A stretch of DNA of 64,000 nt from Candidatus Magasanikiibacteriota bacterium. Lineage in GTDB: Bacteria > Patescibacteriota > Patescibacteriia > Magasanikbacterales > GWA2-37-8. Location of the stretch: contig CAWDHY010000001.1 in NCBI GenBank assembly GCA_963802255.1, positions 107,274 to 171,273 of the forward strand. The letters are read 5' to 3'. This document shows positions 2,974-56,612 of this stretch, in pieces. Numbering within the stretch: position 1 is the first letter of the stretch; each line of letters starts with the position of its first letter. The notes below the pieces were generated by a model. That model had not been told where the DNA came from, did not search any database, and worked only from the letters and a program-made list of their open reading frames with translations. The translations under genes and the position numbers were made by a program.

Positions 2974-4170
2974 TCAATTTTTTTTGAATCGCCAAATTTC
3001 CCGTCCGACTTTTTGATTCGGACGGACATATAACAGGGAATCATTGATTCGATTCTCTGTTTTTAGTAATGCTTCAGGCGTAAAGCCGAGTGTTTTTAAA
3101 TTTTCTTTAATATTTACAGTTATCCATTCACCCCTGTCTCTGAACCTCGGAAATACAATAATAACCCGCCCGCCCTTTTTTAAAATTTTTGAAAAAGATA
3201 TAAATGCCATCCGATAAAGTACGGAGAGTTCGGATGCTTGTCTGCGTAGTTCAGTCGTGTTTTCCTTGCCGTGGAGTGGCTTTCCAAGGAATGGCTCGGT
3301 AATAATATTATCCACTAATTCAGAACCAATAATTTTTGGAAGGGACGAAACGTCGGATTCGTGCAAATCTATTTGTATATTTTCCAGCCCTACATTTTTT
3401 GAAATCAGCCAATCAATATTTGACTGTGTATCAGCAATGGCTTTTCTTGATTTATCGGCACCAATAATTTTATCTACACCCATTATCATCGCCTCAGTAA
3501 TAATGGTACCTGAACCGCAAAAAGGATCTAAAATTGTATCCCTCTTTTTGATAAATGATAAATTTAGCATTATGCGCGCCAATTTCGGCGGTAACATTCC
3601 GCTTAAGTCATCGCGTTCCGGCCGGCCAAAATCACGGTCGCCCCATTCTTTGAACGGCTGGATCACGGTTGTTTTCGCGACAAAAAAATTACTGCCTTCT
3701 TGAGAGATTAAAAATTCCCTGCCTCGTCTATCCAGACCATTTTTTTCCACAGTTACCGTTGATAAAATAGCCTCCCCATTGAAAACATAACGCGCTGAAA
3801 TCCCTGATTGTTTAAGTCGTTTTTTGACTTCTTTGCCTATTATTTCAGAAAATTTTGCGTTTCCTCCCGCACAATAGTTGCTTATTCCAAATATTACTTT
3901 TCCCGGGATAGTGTTTAAATTTTCGTAAATTTTCGTTATCAGAGATTCTTCGTCGTCTGTTGAGAAAAGGCCAGTTGCGATTTTTACTGTGCCCCCCAAT
4001 CGCTTCATTATCTCACATTCATCAAAGTTTCTTCCGCTGACAATAAAAAATGGCGGTTTGTATATACCTCCATTACCATTAAGCTCTAAAACAGCGGATA
4101 TTTCGGCGGCGGAAAGATCAGGGAACGATCCTAAAATAAACCATTTTTCATTTTCAATTGAACGCAGCAT
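2974..4170 (-). CDS. class I SAM-dependent RNA methyltransferase (UPF0020/THUMP-associated family)
   Basis: motif I LDPFCGSGT, followed by IGADKS and a downstream acidic/aromatic motif. Confidence 0.55.
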   Translation of the reverse strand: MLRSIENEKWFILGSFPDLSAAEISAVLELNGNGGIYKPPFFIVSGRNFDECEIMKRLGGTVKIATGLFSTDDEESLITKIYENLNTIPGKVIFGISNYCAGGNAKFSEIIGKEVKKRLKQSGISARYVFNGEAILSTVTVEKNGLDRRGREFLISQEGSNFFVAKTTVIQPFKEWGDRDFGRPERDDLSGMLPPKLARIMLNLSFIKKRDTILDPFCGSGTIITEAMIMGVDKIIGADKSRKAIADTQSNIDWLISKNVGLENIQIDLHESDVSSLPKIIGSELVDNIITEPFLGKPLHGKENTTELRRQASELSVLYRMAFISFSKILKKGGRVIIVFPRFRDRGEWITVNIKENLKTLGFTPEALLKTENRINDSLLYVRPNQKVGREIWRFKKN

Positions 4171-4180
4171 GAAATAGAAA

Positions 4181-4582
4181 TTAATTTATCATGTTTTCGG
4201 CCGGCTCACTTGATGTTGTCATAATAATTTCAGAAACCGGTTTTTGATCCAAATAAATATATGAATTATAAAAAAATATGTTTCTCGCTTTTTCCGGTAT
4301 TGGTGAGGTGTTATTTTTTTTATCAATAATTTCTTCTACTCGCGTTACAGCCGAAGAATTTATATCAGCTGTAACTTCTAAACCCGTTTTTTGAATGATT
4401 TTTTCATTGGTTGAATTAAACAGGCTGACTGCACGGCGATATACAGATATTCCATAAATGCAAAGACAGATGGTGATAATGATTATGACAGAAAGCGAAG
4501 AAATGAGCCAAATAATGTAATTTTTTTCGCTCGCACTTAGAGGCCTCTTTAATATGGTTTTTTTATTCTGTCGGTTGGGCAT
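4181..4582 (-). CDS. single-TM membrane protein, distal gene of the pilus operon (PilP-like position)
   Basis: one N-terminal TM helix; 4-nt overlap with the upstream pilO-like gene. Confidence 0.3.
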   Translation of the reverse strand: MPNRQNKKTILKRPLSASEKNYIIWLISSLSVIIIITICLCIYGISVYRRAVSLFNSTNEKIIQKTGLEVTADINSSAVTRVEEIIDKKNNTSPIPEKARNIFFYNSYIYLDQKPVSEIIMTTSSEPAENMIN

Positions 4583-5108
4583 ATAGAGATAAATTTAGCC
4601 GCACGTTCGCATTTATTTGTGCACTATTTTCCGCGCTTAATGAACCGGATGGTAAAAACTCAATTTTTTGGATTGATATGACATATTTATATGTTTCCAG
4701 GGCAGATAAATATTTGATCATATTAGACAGCGGACCTGACACATTTAACACAATGTCAATCCGGTTGTCGGTATAATTATCCAAATTTGAACTGACAATT
4801 TTATAAGTTACGTTATTTATTGCCGCAATGTTCTCGAAGTCTGTAATTAAGGAAAGTTCATCTCCGGTTGTGAATAAAAATTGACCGAAGCTGTCTATGC
4901 GTCCACCGACTGATTTTATCATAGCTAAACTGTCTCGCAAATTTTCAGTGCTTAAATTTCTTTTGTTTAATGACTCAATCCGGGTGGAGATAGTGTTTGA
5001 TTGAGTGCTGATTCGGTTTGAAATGTAAACTCCAGCAACAATAAGCAATATATTCGCGGTCAGCGAAATTGCGAGAAAAATAACTGTTTTTTTAACGGCG
5101 ATATTCAT
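4563..5108 (-). CDS. pilO: type IV pilus assembly protein PilO-like
   Basis: N-terminal TM helix, coiled-coil and C-terminal domain; position after pilN. Confidence 0.45.
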   Translation of the reverse strand: MNIAVKKTVIFLAISLTANILLIVAGVYISNRISTQSNTISTRIESLNKRNLSTENLRDSLAMIKSVGGRIDSFGQFLFTTGDELSLITDFENIAAINNVTYKIVSSNLDNYTDNRIDIVLNVSGPLSNMIKYLSALETYKYVISIQKIEFLPSGSLSAENSAQINANVRLNLSLYAQPTE

Positions 5109-5660
5109 TTATTTGGCGGTTAAATTATTTTCCATTTTTATCGTCAGCTGGATTTGAAATGTGACATCATTTTTTTGCAGAAGCTGGGATGTGGGCAAGT
5201 ATGTTTTTTCTACCCAAGGGAGCGCGGCTAGCCGGGCTTCATAAGCAATAAGCGCGTCTCGGGTTTTAGCCGTGCCTGGTATATTTATTGAAAAATCATT
5301 TATATCAAGAGTGATGCCTGTAATTTTTATATCCTGCGGGACTGAATTAATAATTGACCAAAAACGGGAAGTCAGCAAGCCAAAATTTTTTCCGGCAAGA
5401 TTAAGCTGCTCGGCTCGGTCATTGATTTTGCGAATTTCTTCATTATAAAATGCGTAGCGTTGGCCTGAATCCATTGATAGCTGGTTTATTATCTTAACCT
5501 GATCAAAAAATAAGAAATATATTAATCCGAGAAAACCGTCAAAAATAATTAGGATAATAAAGAGACAGCGCATAACATTGCGAATCCAGGCCGCAAAGGC
5601 GACGGTTTTGACCACTCGTCGGTCTTCGTCTTTTAAAAAATTTAGATGAATTGGCATCAT
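5109..5660 (-). CDS. pilN: type IV pilus assembly protein PilN-like
   Basis: short cytoplasmic N-terminus (binds PilM), TM helix and periplasmic domain; immediately downstream of pilM. Confidence 0.55.
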   Translation of the reverse strand: MMPIHLNFLKDEDRRVVKTVAFAAWIRNVMRCLFIILIIFDGFLGLIYFLFFDQVKIINQLSMDSGQRYAFYNEEIRKINDRAEQLNLAGKNFGLLTSRFWSIINSVPQDIKITGITLDINDFSINIPGTAKTRDALIAYEARLAALPWVEKTYLPTSQLLQKNDVTFQIQLTIKMENNLTAK

Positions 5661-14018: not shown

Positions 14019-14207
14019 ATTGATACCATTATATCAAAATATTCGTTGTTTATAAATATTGACTAATTATTTGTATTTTTGTAATATATCTCCACAATAA
14101 TACTGCCAGAGATGTTATCTGGTAATGCGGGTATCATATATGGCAAAAAGCATATATGACACCCTCGTTCGGAAATGTAAAAACTTTGTTTTTCCATTTC
14201 GCTCGTT

Positions 14208-14279
14208 GCGGGTATCATATAACGGCTATTATCCCAGTTTTCCAAACTGGTGACAGGGGTTCGACTCCCCTTACCCGCT
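14208..14279 (+). tRNA. tRNA-Gly (anticodon TCC)
   Basis: cloverleaf with acceptor GCGGGTA/TACCCGC, anticodon loop UUUCCAA, T-loop TTCGACT; a 14-nt copy of its 5' end (gcgggtatcatata) lies 81 nt upstream at 14127-14140. Confidence 0.85.
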
Positions 14280-14280
14280 C

Positions 14281-14314
14281 AAAAATAATCAGGGCTGAAA
14301 GCCCTGATTATTTT
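14281..14314 (+). terminator. hairpin aatcagggc-tgaa-gccctgatt followed by ATTTTT
   Basis: 9-bp perfect stem plus U-tract directly after the tRNA. Confidence 0.55.
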
Positions 14315-14320
14315 TGAATG

Positions 14321-14486
14321 TAGTGAAGGGAGTCGAACGGGCAGAAGCGAGACGCGAAGTTTTTGCGGAAGCAAAAACAAGTTGGCGAGAGTCGTCGGAC
14401 TGCCAGTGGCAGTCCGACGCTGCCCAGGACAAGGAGACGAGACGGTTGCGGCCGGCGAGGCGACGAGGAACTCCCCTTACCGCTCA
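14321..14486 (+). repeat. family-A tRNA-appended structured element, copy 1 (candidate ncRNA or miniature mobile element)
   Basis: roughly 80-90% identical by eye to the reverse complement of 24536-24698; 5' end gggagtcgaac is the reverse complement of the tRNA-Gly(TCC) T-loop region; 3' end ctccccttaccgctca copies the tRNA 3' end; internal hairpins show compensatory changes between copies; flanked by terminators. Confidence 0.6.
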
Positions 14487-14488
14487 AA

Positions 14489-14517
14489 ACACACAGACGC
14501 CAGACTGTGTGTTTTTA
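14489..14517 (+). terminator. hairpin acacacag-acgccaga-ctgtgtgt followed by TTTTT
   Basis: 8-bp stem plus T-run directly after the element. Confidence 0.55.
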
Positions 14518-14548
14518 TTCGTCGTTTAGTGATATTATATATCATAAT

Positions 14549-17074
14549 ATGCAGTTATCTATTACATCTCAAACAATTGATTGGCTATATAAGCGTTTTG
14601 AAACTTCAGAGCAGGGATTGTTGCCGACTGAAGCCGAACTCCGCCGAAAAAAATATGGCTTGAATGAATTATCGGCTAAAGAGATAAAGTGGTGGCATAT
14701 TTTAGGCCGTCAATTTAGGTCGCCTTTTATTTATTTGTTAATTTTTGCCGCAAGTTTGGCGCTTGTGATGAGAGAATTAATTGATGGTTTAATGATTTTG
14801 GTCTTCGTGATGATAAACGCTACCTTAGGGTTTGCGGAAGAATATCATTCAGAAAGATCTTTGCGCCTGTTAAAAAAGTTTGTAGTAACGAAAGCGCGCG
14901 TCAGGCGCCACGGCCATGAAATGCTGGTTGATTCATGTCTTCTTGTACCCGGCGATGTCGTTCTTATTGAAACGGGCGATGTGGTGCCGGCAGATTTACG
15001 TTTTATTATTACAAATGGGCTTTCAATTGACGAGTCGGTTATTACAGGAGAGTCGGCACCTCAAAATAAATCTGTTGCGACTTTAAAGCACGAAGCTAAA
15101 CAATTGAGTGATGCGACAAATTTTGGTTTTATGAGTACAGTTGTTTCTGCCGGAAAGGGTGTCGGTGTGGTTGTTAACACCGGAAAAGATACCGCGGTTG
15201 GGGGAATGGCAAAATTGACATCGGAAACTGAACGTAAAAGTTCTTTTGAAAAAGGTATCGCCAGATTCAGTTCATTCATATTGCGAATGGTTGTTCTAAT
15301 AATCGTATTGTTATTCGCGGCCAATATCATTATTAAAGGGCCGGAAGCTGATTTGGGTAATTTATTATTGTTTTCTATAGCACTTGCGGTTAGTGTTATT
15401 CCGGAAGCATTACCTCTAGTTACTACATTATCTCTCTCCCGGGGAGCTTTACGTATGGCAAAAGGAAGCGTTGTAGTTAAACGCTTGTCTGCGGTTGAAG
15501 ATCTGGGTAGCATAGAAGTTTTGTGTACTGATAAAACCGGAACAATAACGGAAAATAAATTGGTGGTGAAAGAAGTGTATTCCAAGGACGAAAGAGCGTG
15601 TTTGTTGAGCGCTGGTGCGGCATCGTCATTTATTGGTGAGGGGAAGCAGGAACCAAATAATGCATTTGATTTGGCCATCTGGAATAATTTAATTGCCACG
15701 GAGAAGAAAAGCGTACTGAAGTGTGGCCGGATAAATGAAATGCCGTTTGATCCTGCCAGGCGCAGAAATAGCGTGGTGGTGAAGAACAATGGCGGCTGCC
15801 GGTTAATTGTACGGGGCGCCGCTGAATCGGTACTGCCTCTTTGCGAACATTTAGGGAATGGGGAATTAAAAAGGATACTGAAATGGGTTGCGGATAAAGG
15901 TGTGGAAGGTTGCCGCACAATAGTTGTGGCTGAGAAAAAATGTGAAGAGATGATTTCCTATGATGACGGGGCTGAAAAAAAATTGATATTTATCGGAGCA
16001 ATCGCTTTTGACGATCCGATAAAGTCGTCAACAATTTCCGCTATTGAAAAAGCTAGACGCCTGGGCGTTCAAGTTAAAATACTAACCGGCGATAGCCGGG
16101 AAGTGGCCGGCGCCGTGGCGCTAAAAGTTGGTTTAATTGATGACGCAAGCAAAATTATCACAGGAGAAGAAATTGATGTTTTACCGGAAAAAAAGCGTGC
16201 CGCGGTGATATTCGAAAATAGCGTTTTTGCCAGAGTTTCTCCGGAGCAGAAATACCGGATTATTGAAGTACTCCAAAGCAAACATGAAGTTGGCTTTTTA
16301 GGAGAAGGTATCAATGACGCGCCGGCGCTAAAATTGGCCAATGTTGCCTTAGCGGTTAACAGTGCGTCGGATATCGCGCGGGAAGCATCAGACATAGTAT
16401 TGCTTCATTCAAGTTTGGCGGTAATTATTGACGGGATAAAAAATGGCCGGGAGGTTTTTGCTAATACGGTGAAATATTTAAAGGTCACTTTAGTTTCAAA
16501 TTTTGGAAATTTTTATGCTATTGCCGCCGCGTCTCTGATCGTGCCTTTTCTGCCGATGTTGCCGGTTCAAATATTGCTTCTTAATTTGCTGTCTGATTTT
16601 CCGATGGTTGCAATCGCCACTGATAAAGTGGACAAAGAGGAACTGCGGCGGCCACGTTCGTATAATATCCGCGAGGTTGTTCTGATGGCTATTATTTTAG
16701 GTTTAGTCAGTACGATATTTGATTTTATATTTTTTGCAATATTTTTTCACCGCGAACCAGCTGTACTGCAAGCAGGGTGGTTTATCGGCAGCGTATTAAC
16801 CGAATTAATTTTAATATATTCTATTCGAACGCGGCTGGCTTTTTGGAAGGCAAAAATGCCCTCTTGGCCGCTTCTCATATTAACTGTTTCGGCTGTAATA
16901 TTCTCCGTGTTTTTACCACTTTCACATTTTGGCCGGTCCATTTTTAAATTTGGCATATTGTCACTGCGGGATATTTTCACGATATTAATCGTTGTTTTTA
17001 TCTACTTTATTATCACCGAACTATTGAAGCGTATATATTATGCAAAAATAGGTAACGGAAAATTAGCCGCTTGA
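14549..17074 (+). CDS. cation-transporting P-type ATPase (P2/P3-like, Mg2+/Ca2+ type)
   Basis: phosphorylation motif CTDKTGTITENK, TGES-like region, hinge GEGINDAPAL, ten predicted TM helices. The track ORF begins at 14363 inside the element; the first ATG with the conserved N-terminus is at 14549. Confidence 0.85.
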   Translation: MQLSITSQTIDWLYKRFETSEQGLLPTEAELRRKKYGLNELSAKEIKWWHILGRQFRSPFIYLLIFAASLALVMRELIDGLMILVFVMINATLGFAEEYHSERSLRLLKKFVVTKARVRRHGHEMLVDSCLLVPGDVVLIETGDVVPADLRFIITNGLSIDESVITGESAPQNKSVATLKHEAKQLSDATNFGFMSTVVSAGKGVGVVVNTGKDTAVGGMAKLTSETERKSSFEKGIARFSSFILRMVVLIIVLLFAANIIIKGPEADLGNLLLFSIALAVSVIPEALPLVTTLSLSRGALRMAKGSVVVKRLSAVEDLGSIEVLCTDKTGTITENKLVVKEVYSKDERACLLSAGAASSFIGEGKQEPNNAFDLAIWNNLIATEKKSVLKCGRINEMPFDPARRRNSVVVKNNGGCRLIVRGAAESVLPLCEHLGNGELKRILKWVADKGVEGCRTIVVAEKKCEEMISYDDGAEKKLIFIGAIAFDDPIKSSTISAIEKARRLGVQVKILTGDSREVAGAVALKVGLIDDASKIITGEEIDVLPEKKRAAVIFENSVFARVSPEQKYRIIEVLQSKHEVGFLGEGINDAPALKLANVALAVNSASDIAREASDIVLLHSSLAVIIDGIKNGREVFANTVKYLKVTLVSNFGNFYAIAAASLIVPFLPMLPVQILLLNLLSDFPMVAIATDKVDKEELRRPRSYNIREVVLMAIILGLVSTIFDFIFFAIFFHREPAVLQAGWFIGSVLTELILIYSIRTRLAFWKAKMPSWPLLILTVSAVIFSVFLPLSHFGRSIFKFGILSLRDIFTILIVVFIYFIITELLKRIYYAKIGNGKLAA

Positions 17075-17482: not shown

Positions 17483-17555
17483 AGCGGGGTAGAGCAATTG
17501 GCAGCTCGTCGGGCTCATAACCCGAAGGTTCCCGGTTCAAGTCCGGGCCCCGCAA
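17483..17555 (+). tRNA. initiator tRNA-fMet (anticodon CAT) with an A1xA72 mismatch
   Basis: three consecutive G:C pairs 29-31:39-41 in the anticodon stem, loop CUCAUAA, unpaired 1:72, discriminator A; no encoded CCA. Confidence 0.8.
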
Positions 17556-17915
17556 CAAAGTTGCGAAGGGGCAGTAACCACTGCTCTTTTGTATTTGTGC
17601 CGCGCAGGGACGCTTTGCGTCCCGTAGGCGGCTAACCATGTTTTGCGTGAATCGGTTCAAGTCCGGGCCCCGCAACAAAGTTGCGAAGGGGCAGTAACCA
17701 CTGCTCTTTTGTATTTGTGCCGCGCAGGGACGCTTTGCGTCCCGTAGGCGGCTAACCATGTTTTGCGTGAATCGGTTCAAGTCCGGGCCCCGCAACAAAG
17801 TTGCGAAGGGGCAGTAACCACTGCTCTTTTGTATTTGTGCCGCGCAGGGACGCTTTGCGTCCCGTAGGCGGCTAACCATGTTTTGCGTGAATCGGTTCAA
17901 GTCCGGGCCCCGCAA
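17556..17915 (+). repeat. 3 x 120-nt tandem array; each unit is a 94-nt structured spacer plus a 26-28-nt copy of the tRNA-fMet T-loop/acceptor 3' end
   Basis: period 120 (ggttcaa at 17534, 17654, 17774, 17894); units virtually identical; internal hairpins gcagtaaccactgc and gggacgc-ttt-gcgtccc; the track ORF 17469..17918 is a translation of this repeat. Confidence 0.85.
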
Positions 17916-17958
17916 CAACTAAAAACATCTCCGCATAAGCGGAGATGTTTTTAGTTGT
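17911..17958. terminator. bidirectional terminator with a 22-bp perfect inverted repeat (caacaactaaaaacatctccgc / gcggagatgtttttagttgttg)
   Basis: long perfect stem with U-tracts on both strands; closes the tRNA array and the convergent perM-like gene. Confidence 0.6.
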
Positions 17959-24497: not shown

Positions 24498-24535
24498 CAT
24501 AAAAAAATACCCCGAAGAAAGCGGGGATTTTTTTG
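24498..24535. terminator. hairpin ccccgaagaaagcgggg with U-tracts on both strands
   Basis: 5-bp GC stem with 7-nt loop; T-run on + strand, A-run on + strand (= T-run on minus strand). Confidence 0.5.
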
Positions 24536-24698
24536 TGGTCCGGGTGGGAATTACTCGTCGTCTCGCCGACCACAATCGGCTCGACTCCTTGCCCTGGGCA
24601 GCGACGGACTGCCACGGGCAGTCCGTCGACTCTCGCCAGCTCGTTTTTGCTTCCGAAAAAACTTCGCTTCTCGCTTCTGCCCGTTCGATTCCCTCGTC
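24536..24698 (-). repeat. family-A tRNA-appended structured element, copy 2 (downstream of tRNA-Leu-TAA)
   Basis: homologous to 14321-14486; 5' end (minus strand) gggaatcgaac is the reverse complement of the tRNA-Leu(TAA) T-loop region; 3' end attcccacccggaccac at 24536-24552 copies the tRNA 3' 17 nt. Confidence 0.6.
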
Positions 24699-24699
24699 T

Positions 24700-24737
24700 G
24701 ACATTTAAAAATACGGCTCCAACAAAAATTGGAACCG
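24700..24737 (-). terminator. hairpin acggttccaa-ttttt-gttggagccgt followed by ATTTTT (minus strand)
   Basis: 10-bp stem with one mismatch, directly after tRNA-Leu. Confidence 0.5.
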
Positions 24738-24748
24738 TACTATTAAAG

Positions 24749-24830
24749 TGGTCCGGGTGGGAATCGAACCCACACGCCTTGCGGCAAGGGATTTTAAGTC
24801 CCTCGTGTATACCAGTTTCACCACCGGACC
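24749..24830 (-). tRNA. tRNA-Leu (anticodon TAA)
   Basis: cloverleaf with a long variable arm (13 nt), anticodon loop CUUAAAA, T-loop TTCGATT. Confidence 0.85.
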
Positions 24831-42322: not shown

Positions 42323-42406
42323 GCCGGGGTGGTGAAATTGGTAGACACGCAGGCCTTAGGAGCCTGTTCCCGCAAGGGATTGGAGGTTCGAGTCCTCTCT
42401 CCGGCA
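42323..42406 (+). tRNA. tRNA-Leu (anticodon TAG)
   Basis: long variable arm; anticodon loop CUUAGGA; T-loop TTCGAGT; acceptor GCCGGGG/CTCCGGC. Confidence 0.85.
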
Positions 42407-42436
42407 CAAAACGAGCCAATAGTTTGGCTCGTTTTT
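42407..42436 (+). terminator. hairpin aacgagcc-aatagtt-tggctcgtt followed by TTTT
   Basis: 9-bp stem plus U-tract right after the tRNA. Confidence 0.55.
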
Positions 42437-42556
42437 AGGACGAGAACGCCGGAGCGATGTTTGACGAACTTGCAGGTGAGGCAAACCGCGAGGCGGTGAC
42501 TAGCCCGAGTAGGCGGAAGCCAACGAGAGGCGAGGTCGAGTCCTCTCCCCGGCACC
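42437..42556 (+). repeat. family-B tRNA-appended structured element, copy 1 (downstream of tRNA-Leu-TAG)
   Basis: shares cores acgccggagcgatgt and accgcgaggcggtg(a/g)ctag with the element at 56351-56506 (minus strand); 3' end ggtcgagtcctctccccggcacca at 42534-42556 copies the tRNA 3' end; 5' end aggac-gagaac resembles an inverted T-arm. Confidence 0.55.
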
Positions 42557-42577
42557 AGTAGCAACTAAATATTTTAT

Positions 42578-43413: not shown

Positions 43414-43769
43414 GTGCCTACGATTAAAACCCCTTTGGGGACCACGTCCAATCTCATGGATACAAATCGTATCCGCCTGGACCTCTGGGTAAGACTTTTA
43501 CTCAATTGTAAAAGACAGGTAATGTTAACCATTATCAAACAACTCAAATCTTACTCATAGTATCCAAGCGGTTCAAACTCACAAAAATTGAGTCGCTTGT
43601 CGCGGCTCATTTTTTTATCTCACACTCCGGCCAATATATTGGCAGGAGCAATGAGACAAGAAATGGATTGCACGTTGACAATTTAAATAGTTCAACAAAA
43701 AAAGCAGATTTATATCTGCTGGGTAGAACGCAACAAAACACTGTTTGGTGTTTTCGTTGTGTGCAATTT

Positions 43770-46870
<3,101 letters not shown>

Positions 46871-56350: not shown

Positions 56351-56506
56351 GTGGGTCGCCAGGGATTCGGCTTCAACTAAAATTTTCTTCCAAAAATTTT
56401 GTCTAGCCACCGCCTCGCGGTCGCGCTCGCTCTTTTGCATCGCGCGACATCGCTCCGGCGTCCGAATCCCTGTCGCGACCAAAACTGTTTGGTCGCTTCG
56501 CCCAAA
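56351..56506 (-). repeat. family-B tRNA-appended structured element, copy 2 (downstream of tRNA-Lys-CTT)
   Basis: minus-strand 3' end ccgaatccctggcgacccac (56351-56370) copies the tRNA-Lys 3' 20 nt exactly; 5' end cagggattcggac is an inverted copy of the Lys T-arm; family-B core motifs; the box tttggtcgcttcgccc plus a terminator module is duplicated at 56294-56345 and 56488-56537. Confidence 0.55.
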
Positions 56507-56539
56507 CAAAAAAATCCCTGACGGGACTTTTTTGTTTTG

Positions 56540-56612
56540 TGGGTCGCCAGGGATTCGGACCCTGGACCTTGTCCTTAAGAGGGACCTGCTCTACCAACTG
56601 AGCTAGCGACCC
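56540..56612 (-). tRNA. tRNA-Lys (anticodon CTT)
   Basis: cloverleaf; anticodon loop CUCUUAA; T-loop TCCGAAT; acceptor GGGTCGC/GCGACCC. Confidence 0.85.

What the first reader, a model, noticed from the sequence alone, without database searches (positions are those of the whole stretch)
14321..14486. Family-A structured element appended to tRNA-Gly(TCC), with termini copied from the tRNA
Immediately after tRNA-Gly(TCC) and its terminator lies a ~165-nt element ending in ctccccttaccgctca, a copy of the last 16-17 nt of the tRNA. Its 5' end (gggagtcgaac) is the exact reverse complement of the same tRNA's T-loop region (gttcgactccc), so the unit is bounded by inverted and direct tRNA-derived sequence. 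It has its own terminator downstream. The interior is roughly 80-90% identical by eye to a second copy at 24536-24698 (minus strand). Differences inside two hairpins (gtcgTcggactgcc..ggcagtccgAcgc versus gtcgAcggactgcc..ggcagtccgTcgc) are compensatory, and a GGAA tetraloop hairpin is conserved. This indicates selection on RNA structure rather than on the ORF the track draws across it. I cannot match it to tmRNA, SRP, 6S or RNase P RNA. It looks like either a novel tRNA-linked ncRNA or a miniature non-autonomous element that targets tRNA 3' ends.
Basis: seen in the sequence. Interest (0 to 1): 0.8.

Follow-up and report, generated by a model that had tools for sequence, protein, structure and literature searches.

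The report
Structured element welded to tRNA genes
Just downstream of many tRNA genes in the tiny-genome Patescibacteria sits a conserved, folded ~150-base element that starts with the antisense of that tRNA's T-loop and ends with a copy of that tRNA's last 19 bases; it matched no RNA family or paper in the libraries I searched, and it is most likely a miniature mobile insertion, or else a tRNA-coupled RNA.

Summary
Both window copies (14328-14486 +; 24535-24693 -) are 88.5% identical, 60-63% GC in a 41% GC window. Three of their differences are compensatory.

The 19-mer TCGAACGGGCAGAAGCGAG recovers about 160 further copies in Patescibacteria genomes and metagenomes, and none in viral, phage or plasmid collections.

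Almost every copy lies 10-60 nt after a same-strand tRNA, covering more than 20 anticodon types. Each copy has three parts:
- A 5' arm that is the reverse complement of that tRNA's G53-C63/64.
- A conserved multi-helix core.
- A direct copy of the tRNA from A58 to position 76.

Covariation is strong (95.5% of cells paired; 20 of 24 pairs change on both sides). The tRNA-sense strand is the one that folds (G.U 89 vs A.C 33).

No Rfam family matches, no linked recombinase was found, and six of ten allowed literature searches found no description.

Unrelated cores (families B and D) follow the same flank logic. Two family-B copies and a tRNA-Met tandem array are in this window.

Best reading (0.45): a non-autonomous insertion element that uses the T-loop-to-3'-end segment of tRNA genes as its attachment site, with a folded single strand as the active part. 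Main rival (0.3): a resident RNA transcribed with the tRNA. The mechanism is inferred, not shown.

The parts
14208..14280 (+). tRNA-Gly(tcc), the host gene of copy 1. Its A58->3' end segment ('X', 14264-14281) is the sequence repeated at the end of the element.
   Evidence: ARAGORN; Rfam tRNA 57.2 bits; coordinates
14281..14315 (+). Extended terminator hairpin (A-run/stem/loop/stem/T-run) between the tRNA and the element. A 12-nt spacer follows at 14316-14327.
   Evidence: Read directly. The same layout is seen in most loci.
14328..14338 (+). 5' arm GGGAGT+CGAAC, the reverse complement of tRNA positions G53-C63. GGGAGT forms helix P1 with 14470-14475.
   Evidence: P1 covaries with the tRNA's T-loop positions 59/60 across 100 sequences (UA 35, AU 32, CG 8, GC 6).
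14339..14469 (+). Conserved core. P2 is GGGCAG 14339-14344 with CTGCCC 14420-14425. The P3 hairpin with a GGAA loop lies at 14359-14378. The P4 hairpin lies at 14391-14420. The P5 hairpin lies at ~14436-14466. Purine-rich joiners (AAGCGAG, AGGACAAGGAG, GACGAGGA) carry tandem G.A motifs.
   Evidence: Consensus fold; covariance model R1 89.7 bits; pair counts
14470..14486 (+). 3' tail ACTCCCCTTACCGCTCA, a direct copy of tRNA-Gly A58->3' end with one C deleted. Its first 6 nt are the P1 3' strand.
14487..14516 (+). Second terminator-like hairpin after the tail. It is not homologous to the first.
24748..24830 (-). tRNA-Leu(taa), the host gene of copy 2.
24535..24693 (-). Copy 2 of family A. The 5' arm GGGAATCGAAC lies at 24683-24693, the core follows, and the tail ATTCCCACCCGGACCAC lies at 24535-24551. 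Terminator hairpins flank it at 24707-24741 and 24501-24534.
   Evidence: (88.5 bits)

Best explanation
The feature is one copy of a Patescibacteria-wide family of small structured elements that are physically and sequence-wise coupled to tRNA genes.

Anatomy (shown). After a tRNA gene, usually after its terminator hairpin and about 10 nt of spacer, comes:
(i) 6-8 nt plus CGAAC that are the reverse complement of that tRNA's T-stem/T-loop (positions 64/63 back to 53);
(ii) a 100-140-nt GC-rich core of four helices with tandem G.A motifs;
(iii) a direct copy of the tRNA from A58 to position 76.
The 5' arm pairs with the first 6-8 nt of the tail (helix P1) and closes the fold. The folding strand is the tRNA-sense strand.

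Mechanism (inferred). I read it as a non-autonomous insertion (integrative) element whose attachment site is the T-loop-to-3'-end segment of tRNA genes.
- Insertion leaves an intact tRNA with a terminator on the proximal side and the displaced or duplicated tRNA 3' segment on the distal side.
- Repeated insertion or unequal exchange between the direct repeats builds tandem arrays, in which distal copies decay.
- The conserved fold is the part recognised by machinery supplied in trans. It could be the read-through transcript of the tRNA gene or the transiently single-stranded DNA.
- P1 would present the attachment sequence as a short duplex, as the folded attP of CTX phage and integron attC sites do.
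- The catalyst is unknown.
For: Family and placement:
- There are 63 loci in species-representative genomes and 104 in metagenomes with an exact 19-mer, and 109 covariance-model hits in the first 100 sources.
- 60 of 85 real copies have a same-strand tRNA ending within 130 nt upstream. Most of the rest have an undetected tRNA, are second units of arrays, or were pushed away by another insertion.

tRNA-specific ends:
- The tail equals the neighbouring tRNA for more than 20 anticodon types.
- The exact direct repeat has a mode of 19-21 nt. Identity is 94-100% at 58-64, 76-90% at 65-73, and falls to 30-45% after position 76. This is the pattern of elements that regenerate a tRNA 3' end.
- The repeat copies genomic trailer bases, not an added CCA. 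So it is a DNA-level copy.

Decay and turnover:
- The acceptor part of the tail is less conserved than the P1 part. Window copy 1 has a 1-nt deletion there.
- Tandem units with degenerate distal copies occur in L004, L005/L010, L031 and L048.
- Close relatives differ at the ATPase locus: empty in L173, a different-core element in L174/L175, and family A in the window.

Multi-copy behaviour:
- Cores cluster by genome, not by tRNA.

Generic logic:
- Unrelated cores (families B and D) have the same antisense-arm/tail arrangement.
- In L173 the arm GGACTTGAAC follows the unusual T-loop GTTCAAGTCC of tRNA-Met.

Structure under selection:
- 95.5% of cells are paired against 83.5% in shuffles and 30-46% when partners are slid.
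- 260 cells have double changes, and all 8 pairs of P4 covary.
- G.U 89 vs A.C 33.
Against: - No integrase, transposase or reverse transcriptase is linked. No recurrent neighbouring ORF was found. No XerD-like protein was found among 2926 ORFs. Only four scattered large serine recombinases were seen, and they look like parts of other islands.
- No excised form, circle junction or clean filled/empty pair at one tRNA was found. The relatives I fetched lacked the tRNA as well.
- The tail matches each different tRNA while cores are shared within a genome. Left-hand terminators follow tRNA identity (the Ser loci). So it is unclear which repeat copy, if either, is carried by the element. A simple circle carrying its own tRNA 3' segment does not explain target switching.
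- RNA-type features favour a transcript: GNRA loops 17 on the + strand vs 0 on the - strand, and tandem G.A motifs.
- At least 10 loci have only 9-24 nt between the tRNA and the element, so there it must be co-transcribed.
- tRNA-Glu-element-tsaD synteny holds across 9 species whose TsaD proteins are only 34-64% identical, apart from one close pair at 91%. This fits long-term retention as well as re-insertion.
Confidence: 0.45

Rival explanations
1. Resident tRNA-coupled non-coding RNA. The element would be a host RNA gene, or a functional 3' trailer, transcribed with or just after the tRNA. Its 5' arm is antisense to the T-arm of its cognate tRNA or pre-tRNA, and its tail mimics the tRNA 3' end. 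It would act on that tRNA, for example in maturation, quality control, sequestration or as a decoy for a tRNA-binding factor. Copies would be kept alike within a genome by gene conversion.
For: - Conservation runs across the phylum, with an invariant 24-nt 5' block, strong covariation, a G.U strand bias, GNRA loops and tandem G.A motifs.
- The element is always in tRNA orientation.
- At least 10 loci have no terminator between the tRNA and the element, so it is certainly part of the precursor there.
- Synteny with tRNA-Glu and tsaD holds over deep divergence.
- In L001 the tail is 19/19 identical while the adjacent homologous terminator is about 23% diverged, by my own count of roughly 10 mismatches in 44 positions.
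- Tails remain near-perfect even when another island has separated them from the tRNA by 1.5 kb (L118 21/21, L045 17/17).
Against: - In most loci a strong terminator precedes the element, and no promoter-like site is placed to drive it.
- The acceptor part of the tail decays in many copies.
- Degenerate copies and tandem arrays occur.
- Presence and absence, and family swapping, occur between close relatives.
- Several unrelated cores share only the flank logic. That is easier to explain by a common insertion process than by a common RNA function.
Confidence: 0.3
2. Guide-bearing or catalytic RNA. The 5' arm (complement of 58-64 followed by complement of 53-57) would work like an internal guide sequence spanning the G57|A58 junction. 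This is the same order as P10 then P1 in group I introns (from my own knowledge of those introns). The tail would be a '3' exon'. The RNA would cleave, exchange or recombine the 3' segment of its cognate tRNA. Alternatively it would guide a trans-acting recombinase to both strands of the tRNA gene, as bridge RNAs do.
For: - The arm is complementary across the exact boundary where the direct repeat begins.
- CGAAC has no partner inside the element, yet it is kept in families A and D. It changes to TGAAC or CGGAC with unusual T-loops in family B.
- The core is conserved like a functional RNA.
Against: - No similarity to any ribozyme or intron model, even at E<=10.
- The core is only about 100 nt, and unrelated cores do the same job.
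- The 5' arm and the tail are complementary to each other and would self-pair.
- No recombinase partner was found.
- The tail decays in many copies.
Confidence: 0.1
3. By-product of replication template switching. The nascent strand would switch between tRNA loci at the conserved T-arm microhomology (GGTTCGAATCC and its complement). This would copy a core from a donor locus and duplicate the target's 3' segment, with no dedicated enzyme.
For: - Both junctions of the shared unit fall exactly in the T-arm sequence common to tRNAs.
- Some copies carry long inverted copies of the tRNA 3' end (L004 23 nt, L022, L059, L129).
- Some direct repeats extend through the terminator (51-97 nt).
- The tRNA-Met array is perfect.
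Against: - It does not explain why the core is conserved in sequence and structure across a phylum.
- Long inverted arms are a minority.
- Copies with long direct repeats do not consistently have long inverted arms.
Confidence: 0.08
4. Inert scar. The element would be the leftover attR arm of ordinary integrase-borne islands or prophages that integrated in the tRNA T-loop and later lost their interior.
For: - A direct repeat of the tRNA 3' segment is the classical signature of such integration (Islander paper abstract, PMC4383910, as listed).
- tRNA loci in these genomes do receive other islands.
Against: - The distance from A58 to the arm is tightly fixed, mostly 59-78 nt, rather than showing random deletion end-points.
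- No integrase remnants were found.
- The element is absent from 2.9 million viral contigs, 50,697 phages and 72,556 plasmids.
- Compensatory changes and a strand-specific G.U bias show selection on a single-stranded fold, which a double-stranded att arm does not need.
Confidence: 0.05

Closest known systems
tRNA-integrating genomic islands and prophages (tyrosine-integrase attL/attR; e.g. the Islander collection and the tycheposons of Prochlorococcus)
   Same: - Insertion is at the 3' part of a tRNA gene.
- The tRNA remains intact, and a displaced copy of its 3' segment marks the far end.
- The repeat ends at the gene's 3' end.
- Successive insertions push older ones outward (tycheposon preprint 10.1101/2020.12.28.424599; here).
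   Different: - The whole unit is about 200 bp, with no integrase and usually no cargo.
- The arm next to the repeat is a conserved single-strand fold with covariation.
- A reverse-complement T-loop arm is present.
- It was not found in any virus or plasmid collection searched.
Folded single-strand recombination sites: integron attC sites and the CTX-phage attP(+) hairpin used by XerCD (from my own knowledge; attC description also in PMC5737381)
   Same: - Structure is conserved more than sequence between families.
- Only one strand folds.
- An inverted and a direct copy of the target-like sequence pair to make the site.
- Tandem arrays form next to a fixed site.
- Units without a gene exist.
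   Different: - No RYYYAAC...GTTRRRY boxes. The 3' side reads GGAA|AWTCCC.
- The loop is a 100-140-nt four-helix domain, not a simple hairpin.
- The anchor is a tRNA gene, not attI or dif.
- No IntI or Xer gene is linked.
IS200/IS605-derived miniature elements and the omega (right-end) RNAs of TnpB/IscB (from my own knowledge)
   Same: - A structured scaffold of about 130 nt is followed at its 3' end by ~16-20 nt that equal the flanking target.
- Non-autonomous miniature copies are scattered in a genome.
- They have a single-strand lifestyle.
   Different: - No tnpA, tnpB or iscB gene is nearby.
- No Rfam hit to the corresponding RNA families.
- The target sequence is also present intact upstream, as a direct repeat, which IS200/IS605 insertion does not create.
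Group I intron internal guide sequence. Group I introns are common in Patescibacteria tRNA genes (PMC13011429).
   Same: - A 5' segment is complementary first to the downstream and then to the upstream side of a junction in a tRNA.
- The host phylum tolerates many selfish RNA elements in tRNA genes.
   Different: - The reported introns sit in the anticodon loop (35/36 and classical sites), interrupt the gene and match group I models.
- This element lies outside an intact gene, is too small, and matches no intron model.
Functional tRNA 3' trailers such as E. coli 3'ETS-leuZ (from my own knowledge)
   Same: An RNA encoded immediately after a tRNA and released from the same precursor can have its own function.
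   Different: - Those are short and unstructured, and act by pairing with sRNAs.
- They carry no copy or antisense of the tRNA itself.

Membership tests
Known housekeeping or catalogued RNAs (tmRNA, SRP, 6S, RNase P, riboswitches, ribozymes, introns; Rfam 15) | A match to the family's covariance model at or near its gathering score | tested here: not met
   The whole window at gathering thresholds gives only tRNAs, 23S and 5S. Region 14150-14560 at E<=10 gives only the tRNA and chance hits far below threshold.
tRNA-integrating island/prophage att site | A direct repeat of the tRNA 3' segment flanking the inserted DNA, with an intact tRNA on one side | tested here: met
   The exact repeat mode is 19-21 nt from A58, and identity drops after position 76. 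The tRNA is intact.
tRNA-integrating island/prophage att site | An integrase gene (tyrosine or serine recombinase) within the element, or the same att arm in an autonomous element | tested here: not met
   There is no recurrent ORF near about 60 loci. No XerD-like ORF was found among 2926 ORFs. Large serine recombinases occur in only 4 loci. There are 0 hits in IMG/VR, phage and plasmid collections. This makes the tyrosine-recombinase negative weak.
Integron attC site | R''(RYYYAAC)/R'(GTTRRRY) and L''/L' inverted boxes forming a hairpin with extrahelical bases | tested here: not met
   The 5' arm ends in ..TCGAAC, but the 3' side is GGAA|AWTCCC with no GTT box. The fold is a four-helix domain.
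Integron attC site | Recombination of one folded DNA strand by IntI | not testable with these tools
   Strand bias (G.U 89 vs A.C 33) shows that one strand folds. It cannot separate RNA from single-stranded DNA, a limitation also stated in PMC5737381.
IS200/IS605 omega-RNA or miniature element | Adjacency to, or derivation from, tnpB/iscB/tnpA, and an omega-RNA scaffold | tested here: not met
   No such recurrent ORF was found, and no Rfam hit. Only the layout of a scaffold plus a 3' target-matching tail is shared.
Group I / group II intron | A conserved catalytic core, and interruption of the host gene | tested here: not met
   There is no model match. The tRNA gene is uninterrupted. The core is about 100-140 nt.
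Conserved structured single-strand element (RNA or ssDNA) | Base pairs kept by compensatory changes beyond what relatedness and composition give | tested here: met
   95.5% of cells are paired. 0 of 500 shuffles reach any of the five measures. Slid controls give 30-46% paired. 20 of 24 pairs show double changes. The alignment was fitted to the model, so the counts lean towards the structure. An independent MAFFT/RNAalifold alignment gave the same helices.
Mobile element (any mechanism) | Filled versus empty alleles of the same site, or an excised form | tested here: inconclusive
   The orthologous ATPase-upstream region is empty in L173, holds a different-core element in L174/L175, and holds family A in the window. 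The tRNA itself is also absent in those relatives. Upstream of ruvB, the relatives lack the tRNA-Leu.

The most novel reading that the evidence does not exclude
The element encodes a programmable RNA. Its 5' arm (antisense to T-loop/T-stem 53-64) and 3' tail (sense copy of 58-76) together address both strands, or both sides of the G57|A58 junction, of one specific tRNA or tRNA gene. The conserved core is either a small ribozyme or the scaffold for an unknown protein that cuts, exchanges or recombines at the T-loop. In effect this would be a natural RNA-guided system aimed at tRNAs, either for self-insertion or for replacing a tRNA 3' segment.
Probability: 0.12. Interest if true: 0.95.

Novelty: new variant of a known kind. 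Interest (0 to 1): 0.8.

Why it matters
If it is a mobile element, it would be, as far as I know, the smallest tRNA-targeting insertion unit described. It is about 200 bp with no gene of its own, and it is abundant in genomes that are otherwise stripped to the minimum: 5 of 11 tRNAs in this window carry some appended element. It would point to an unidentified trans-acting recombination or copying activity in Patescibacteria.

If it is an RNA, it would be a phylum-wide non-coding RNA class whose two ends are written in the sequence of the neighbouring tRNA. I know of no precedent for that, and it would make a tRNA-directed RNA function directly testable.

There are practical consequences either way:
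- The elements cause gene-start mis-annotation. Here the ATPase is called at 903 aa instead of 841 aa.
- They create tRNA-fragment repeats that can confuse island finders and assemblers.
- They provide a ready covariance model for annotating CPR genomes.

Tried and rejected
**Searches that found nothing**
- Rfam, at gathering and permissive thresholds, gave nothing.
- IMG/VR, the INPHARED phage collection and PLSDB plasmids gave no copy.
- Six literature searches and three papers checked found no description. The nearest items were anticodon-loop group I introns in Patescibacteria and the tycheposons.

**Linked proteins**
- All-against-all clustering of neighbouring ORFs found only housekeeping genes.
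- The XerD phmmer search was negative, but it returned nothing even at E<=10 and may have failed.
- The serine recombinase search found 4 scattered loci.

**Empty-site comparison**
- RuvB and P-type ATPase homologues were used to fetch relatives.
- Synteny around both tRNAs is not kept, so no clean filled/empty pair was obtained.

**Ideas I dropped**
- 'Cargo genes are part of the element.' In L045/L118, and I think in L015, the genes belong to separate islands inserted between the tRNA and the element. Those islands leave only a 6-10-nt tRNA-end fragment upstream of the terminator.
- 'X-terminator-X' is one long palindrome made at insertion.' The palindrome is mostly the terminator's own A-run/T-run stem. 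Beyond it the antisense arm is short.
- 'The tail derives from mature tRNA, like a retroviral primer-binding-site footprint ending at m1A58.' No CCA is present where the gene lacks it, the repeat continues into the genomic trailer, and the left boundary differs between families: 58 in A, 55-56 in B, 52-53 in the Met array.
- 'Minus-strand gene.' G.U and GNRA counts favour the plus strand.
- A dedicated promoter. None is convincingly placed.
Full report

Yes. tRNA-Gly(tcc) lies at 14208-14280. After it come, in order:
- An extended terminator hairpin at 14281-14315.
- A 12-nt spacer.
- GGGAGTCGAAC at 14328-14338, the exact reverse complement of the tRNA's G53-C63.
- A GC-rich interior.
- ACTCCCCTTACCGCTCA at 14470-14486, the tRNA's A58-to-3'-end segment (14264-14281) minus one C.
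- A second, unrelated terminator at 14487-14516.

The second copy is on the minus strand at 24535-24693, after tRNA-Leu(taa) at 24748-24830. It has the same layout with that tRNA's own sequences: arm GGGAATCGAAC and tail ATTCCCACCCGGACCAC.

From P1 to P1' the copies are 131/148 identical with no indels. Three of the differences are double, pair-preserving changes, in P1, P4 and P5.

Their GC content is 60-63% against 41% for the window. The shared 19-mer is expected 0.01 times by chance.

The ORF that crosses copy 1 is an over-extended start of the P-type ATPase gene. The public annotation has 903 aa, while the closest homologues have 841 aa beginning at the ATG at 14549.

**2. How big is the family?**

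- The 19-mer TCGAACGGGCAGAAGCGAG occurs in 63 stretches of the one-genome-per-species collection. Four of those are chance hits inside GC-rich coding sequence in unrelated phyla. The rest are Patescibacteria: records named Moran-, Komeili-, Kerfeld-, Uhr- and Doudnabacteria, the Parcubacteria group, and Saccharibacteria. A few MAGs carry other labels that I did not verify.
- It occurs in 104 metagenome stretches.
- It occurs in none of 2.9 million viral contigs. The element has no match in phage or plasmid collections.
- A covariance model built from 32 copies finds exactly the two copies in the window. It finds 109 in the first 100 sources, including diverged copies without the 19-mer.

**3. 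Anatomy across the family**

*Position*
- The nearest upstream feature is a same-strand tRNA. 60 of 85 real copies with enough upstream sequence have one ending within 130 nt.
- The others show one of three things: an evident T-arm that ARAGORN missed, a place as second unit of an array, or only a 6-10-nt fragment of a tRNA 3' end followed by the terminator. In the last case another island has been inserted between the tRNA and the element (examples).
- More than 20 anticodon types are used.
- The distance from the tRNA's A58 to the start of the arm is tightly distributed, mostly 59-78 nt.
- A subgroup has only 9-24 nt between the tRNA end and the arm, with no terminator between them.

*Tail*
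- 91 of 173 hits have an exact direct repeat of at least 12 nt with the tRNA. The modal length is 19-21 nt.
- Position by position, tail-tRNA identity is 94-100% at 58-64, 76-90% at 65-73 and 60-78% at 74-76. It is about 30-45% beyond that. The first mismatch falls most often at position 77.
- Where the gene lacks CCA, the tail copies the genomic trailer rather than CCA.
- So the tail is a DNA-level copy of the gene's 3' segment.

*5' arm*
- Perfect complementarity to the tRNA runs a median of 7 nt beyond CGAAC (range 4-14).
- The long palindromes I first saw are mainly the terminator's own A-run/T-run stem.
- A few loci do carry near-full inverted copies: L004 (23 nt), L022, L059 and L129.

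**4. Is the fold real, and on which strand?**

An independent MAFFT/RNAalifold run and the model-based alignment agree on these helices:
- P1, the arm paired with the first 6 nt of the tail.
- P2, GGGCAG with CUGCCC.
- A short helix, GC..G with C..GC, enclosing a variable hairpin P3.
- P4.
- A variable hairpin P5.

On 100 distinct sequences:
- 95.5% of cells are standard pairs. Shuffles give 83.5% (0 of 500 reach the observed value). Slid partners give 30-46%.
- 20 of 24 pairs have changes on both sides, in 260 cells.
- All eight P4 pairs covary.
- P1 position 5 is U-A in 35 sequences, A-U in 32, C-G in 8 and G-C in 6. It tracks T-loop positions 59/60 of the host tRNA.

Strand evidence:
- G.U pairs outnumber A.C 89 to 33, and 56 to 19 when P1 is left out.
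- GNRA tetraloops number 17 on the plus strand and 0 on the minus strand.
- By my reading of the alignment, the recurring GCGAG/CGAGC strings are the two strands of helices with tandem G.A pairs at the bases of P3 and P5.

So the tRNA-sense strand folds, and the motifs look RNA-like. Sequence analysis cannot separate RNA from single-stranded DNA, a limitation also stated in PMC5737381.

**5. Dynamics**

- Cores cluster by genome, not by tRNA. The window's Gly and Leu copies are 88.5% identical. In one Moranbacteria genome the Glu and Gly(tcc) copies are about 93% identical from arm to P1' and unrelated outside that span.
- By contrast, the terminator and spacer to the left of the core are conserved among tRNA-Ser loci of different isoacceptors and genomes. 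The right-hand flank is not conserved.
- Tandem units exist, with degenerate distal copies (L004, L005/L010, L031, L048).
- tRNA-Glu-element-tsaD synteny is kept in nine species whose TsaD proteins are only 34-64% identical, apart from one close pair at 91%.
- Upstream of the ATPase gene, the closest relatives differ. One has neither tRNA nor element. Two have an element with a different core (family D) and a tRNA-Gly-type tail but no tRNA.
- No recombinase, transposase or reverse transcriptase recurs near the elements. A XerD query found nothing among 2926 ORFs.
- Large serine recombinases occur next to four distinct loci and appear to belong to other islands.

**6. The same logic with other cores**

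- Among 216 tRNAs in the fetched loci, 90 have a downstream repeat of their 3' end. 67 of these are family A and 23 are something else. This set is biased, because the loci were chosen for carrying family A.
- Family B (..GAAC GCCGGAGCGATG .. CCGYGAGGCGGYGNCTAG ..) occurs twice in this window, after tRNA-Leu(tag) and tRNA-Lys(ctt). It also occurs in L056, L062, L155 and L173.
- Its arm follows unusual T-loops: GGGATTCGGAC for tRNA-Lys GTCCGAATCCC, and GGACTTGAAC for tRNA-Met GTTCAAGTCC.
- In family B the tail starts at position 55-56, not 58.
- tRNA-Met in the window carries 3.2 perfect 120-nt units, each ending in the tRNA's 3' part.
- Five of the window's eleven tRNAs therefore carry an appended element.

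**7. Interpretation**

*For insertion at the tRNA's 3' segment*
- The direct repeat stops at the end of the gene.
- The acceptor part of the tail decays.
- There are arrays with decaying distal units, turnover between relatives, and several cores sharing one flank logic.
- This is the behaviour of tRNA-integrating islands and of the tycheposons.

*Against a classical integrase scar*
- The spacing is fixed.
- No integrase or viral counterpart was found.
- Selection acts on a single-strand fold.

My best reading (0.45) is a non-autonomous insertion element. Its conserved fold, with P1 presenting the attachment sequence as a short duplex, is recognised by machinery supplied in trans. This works like folded-strand sites such as integron attC or CTX-phage attP, but the element is not a member of those families.

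*Weak points of this reading*
- No catalyst, excised form or clean empty site was found.
- It is unclear how the tail comes to match each new tRNA.

*Main rival (0.3): a resident RNA coupled to its tRNA*
- In favour: RNA-type motifs, obligatory co-transcription in the terminator-less subgroup, deep synteny, and tails that stay perfect even when 1.5 kb from the tRNA.
- Against: decay, arrays and family swapping.

*Smaller shares*
- A guide-bearing or catalytic RNA (0.1).
- Enzyme-free template switching at T-arm microhomology (0.08).
- An inert scar (0.05).

**8. Novelty**

- No Rfam family matches. Neither the six literature searches nor the three papers I checked describe it. The library does not hold most subscription-journal papers.
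- I rate it a new variant of a known kind: insertion at tRNA 3' ends, and non-autonomous elements with folded sites.
- I give a 0.12 chance that it is categorically new, namely an RNA-programmed system aimed at tRNAs.

What is shown: the anatomy, distribution, covariation, strand and tRNA-specific ends. What is inferred: the mechanism.

Noticed in passing
window 17533-17918 (+), after tRNA-Met 17483-17556: There are 3.2 perfectly identical 120-nt tandem units. Each consists of a ~97-nt insert (terminator-like hairpin plus a GC-rich hairpin) followed by a copy of the tRNA-Met 3' part from G52/53 (copies at 17654, 17774 and 17894). There is no T-loop antisense arm. In relative L173 the same tRNA-Met carries a family-B element instead.
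   Followed up: partly
window 42437-42557 (+), after tRNA-Leu(tag) 42323-42407: A family-B appended element with a different core (GAACGCCGGAGCGATG...CCGCGAGGCGGTGACTAG). It begins AGGACGAGAAC, a near reverse complement of the T-loop, and ends TCGAGTCCTCTCCCCGGCACCA, a copy of the tRNA 3' part with one mismatch.
   Followed up: partly
window 56351-56470 (-), after tRNA-Lys(ctt) 56539-56612: A second family-B element. Its arm GGGATTCGGAC matches the unusual T-loop (GTCCGAATCCC) of this tRNA. The sequence upstream of the arm (TGGTCGCGACA) is a near-full inverted copy of the tRNA 3' end. The tail CCGAATCCCTGGCGACCCAC starts at position 55/56.
   Followed up: partly
window 14127-14140 (+): A 14-nt duplicate of the 5' end of tRNA-Gly(tcc), GCGGGTATCATATA, lies 81 nt upstream of the gene. 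It may be a remnant of another rearrangement at this tRNA.
   Followed up: no
window 14363-17074 (+): The public annotation of the P-type (Mg2+-type) ATPase gene starts at a TTG at 14363 inside the element, giving 903 aa. The closest homologues are 841 aa, which fits the ATG at 14549.
   Followed up: yes
window 43760-46861 (+): The 23S rRNA match spans 3102 nt against a 2925-position model, so roughly 180 extra bases are inserted somewhere. No intron family was reported at gathering thresholds.
   Followed up: no
L028 (also L069, L136), roughly 3816-5525 on the strand on which tRNA-Lys reads forward, counted from that end of the locus: A large serine recombinase gene lies between tRNA-Lys and a family-A element. 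It is flanked by ~50-bp inverted repeats made of the tRNA's trailer sequence. Serine recombinases also lie next to elements in L053, L090 and L157.
   Followed up: partly
L045 and L118, between tRNA-Ser and the family-A element: A second type of small island carries one cargo gene and has conserved ends: a left end ...TTTTTGGCGAAAA..GGGCAAAAGAAATTTTTT, and a right end with TCGCCAAAG and a GC-rich hairpin block ending ..GTTCGAGCTATTTYAAGAATACACCGC. It is inserted at the extreme 3' end of tRNA-Ser and pushes the family-A element 0.9-1.5 kb away.
   Followed up: partly
L173 ~2400-2430, L174 ~2215-2245, L175 ~890-920, L072 upstream of the element: A conserved motif, AAATAAAGTTCTAACNTCATTGACT, lies just before the terminator that precedes the appended elements, or before the empty site in L173. 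Its function is unknown.
   Followed up: no
L168 4582-6029: The closest relative's contig carries a reverse transcriptase (RVT_1) next to a bAvd gene, the two genes that typically mark a diversity-generating retroelement. It lies about 1 kb beyond the end of ruvB. So reverse transcriptases are available in this lineage.
   Followed up: no
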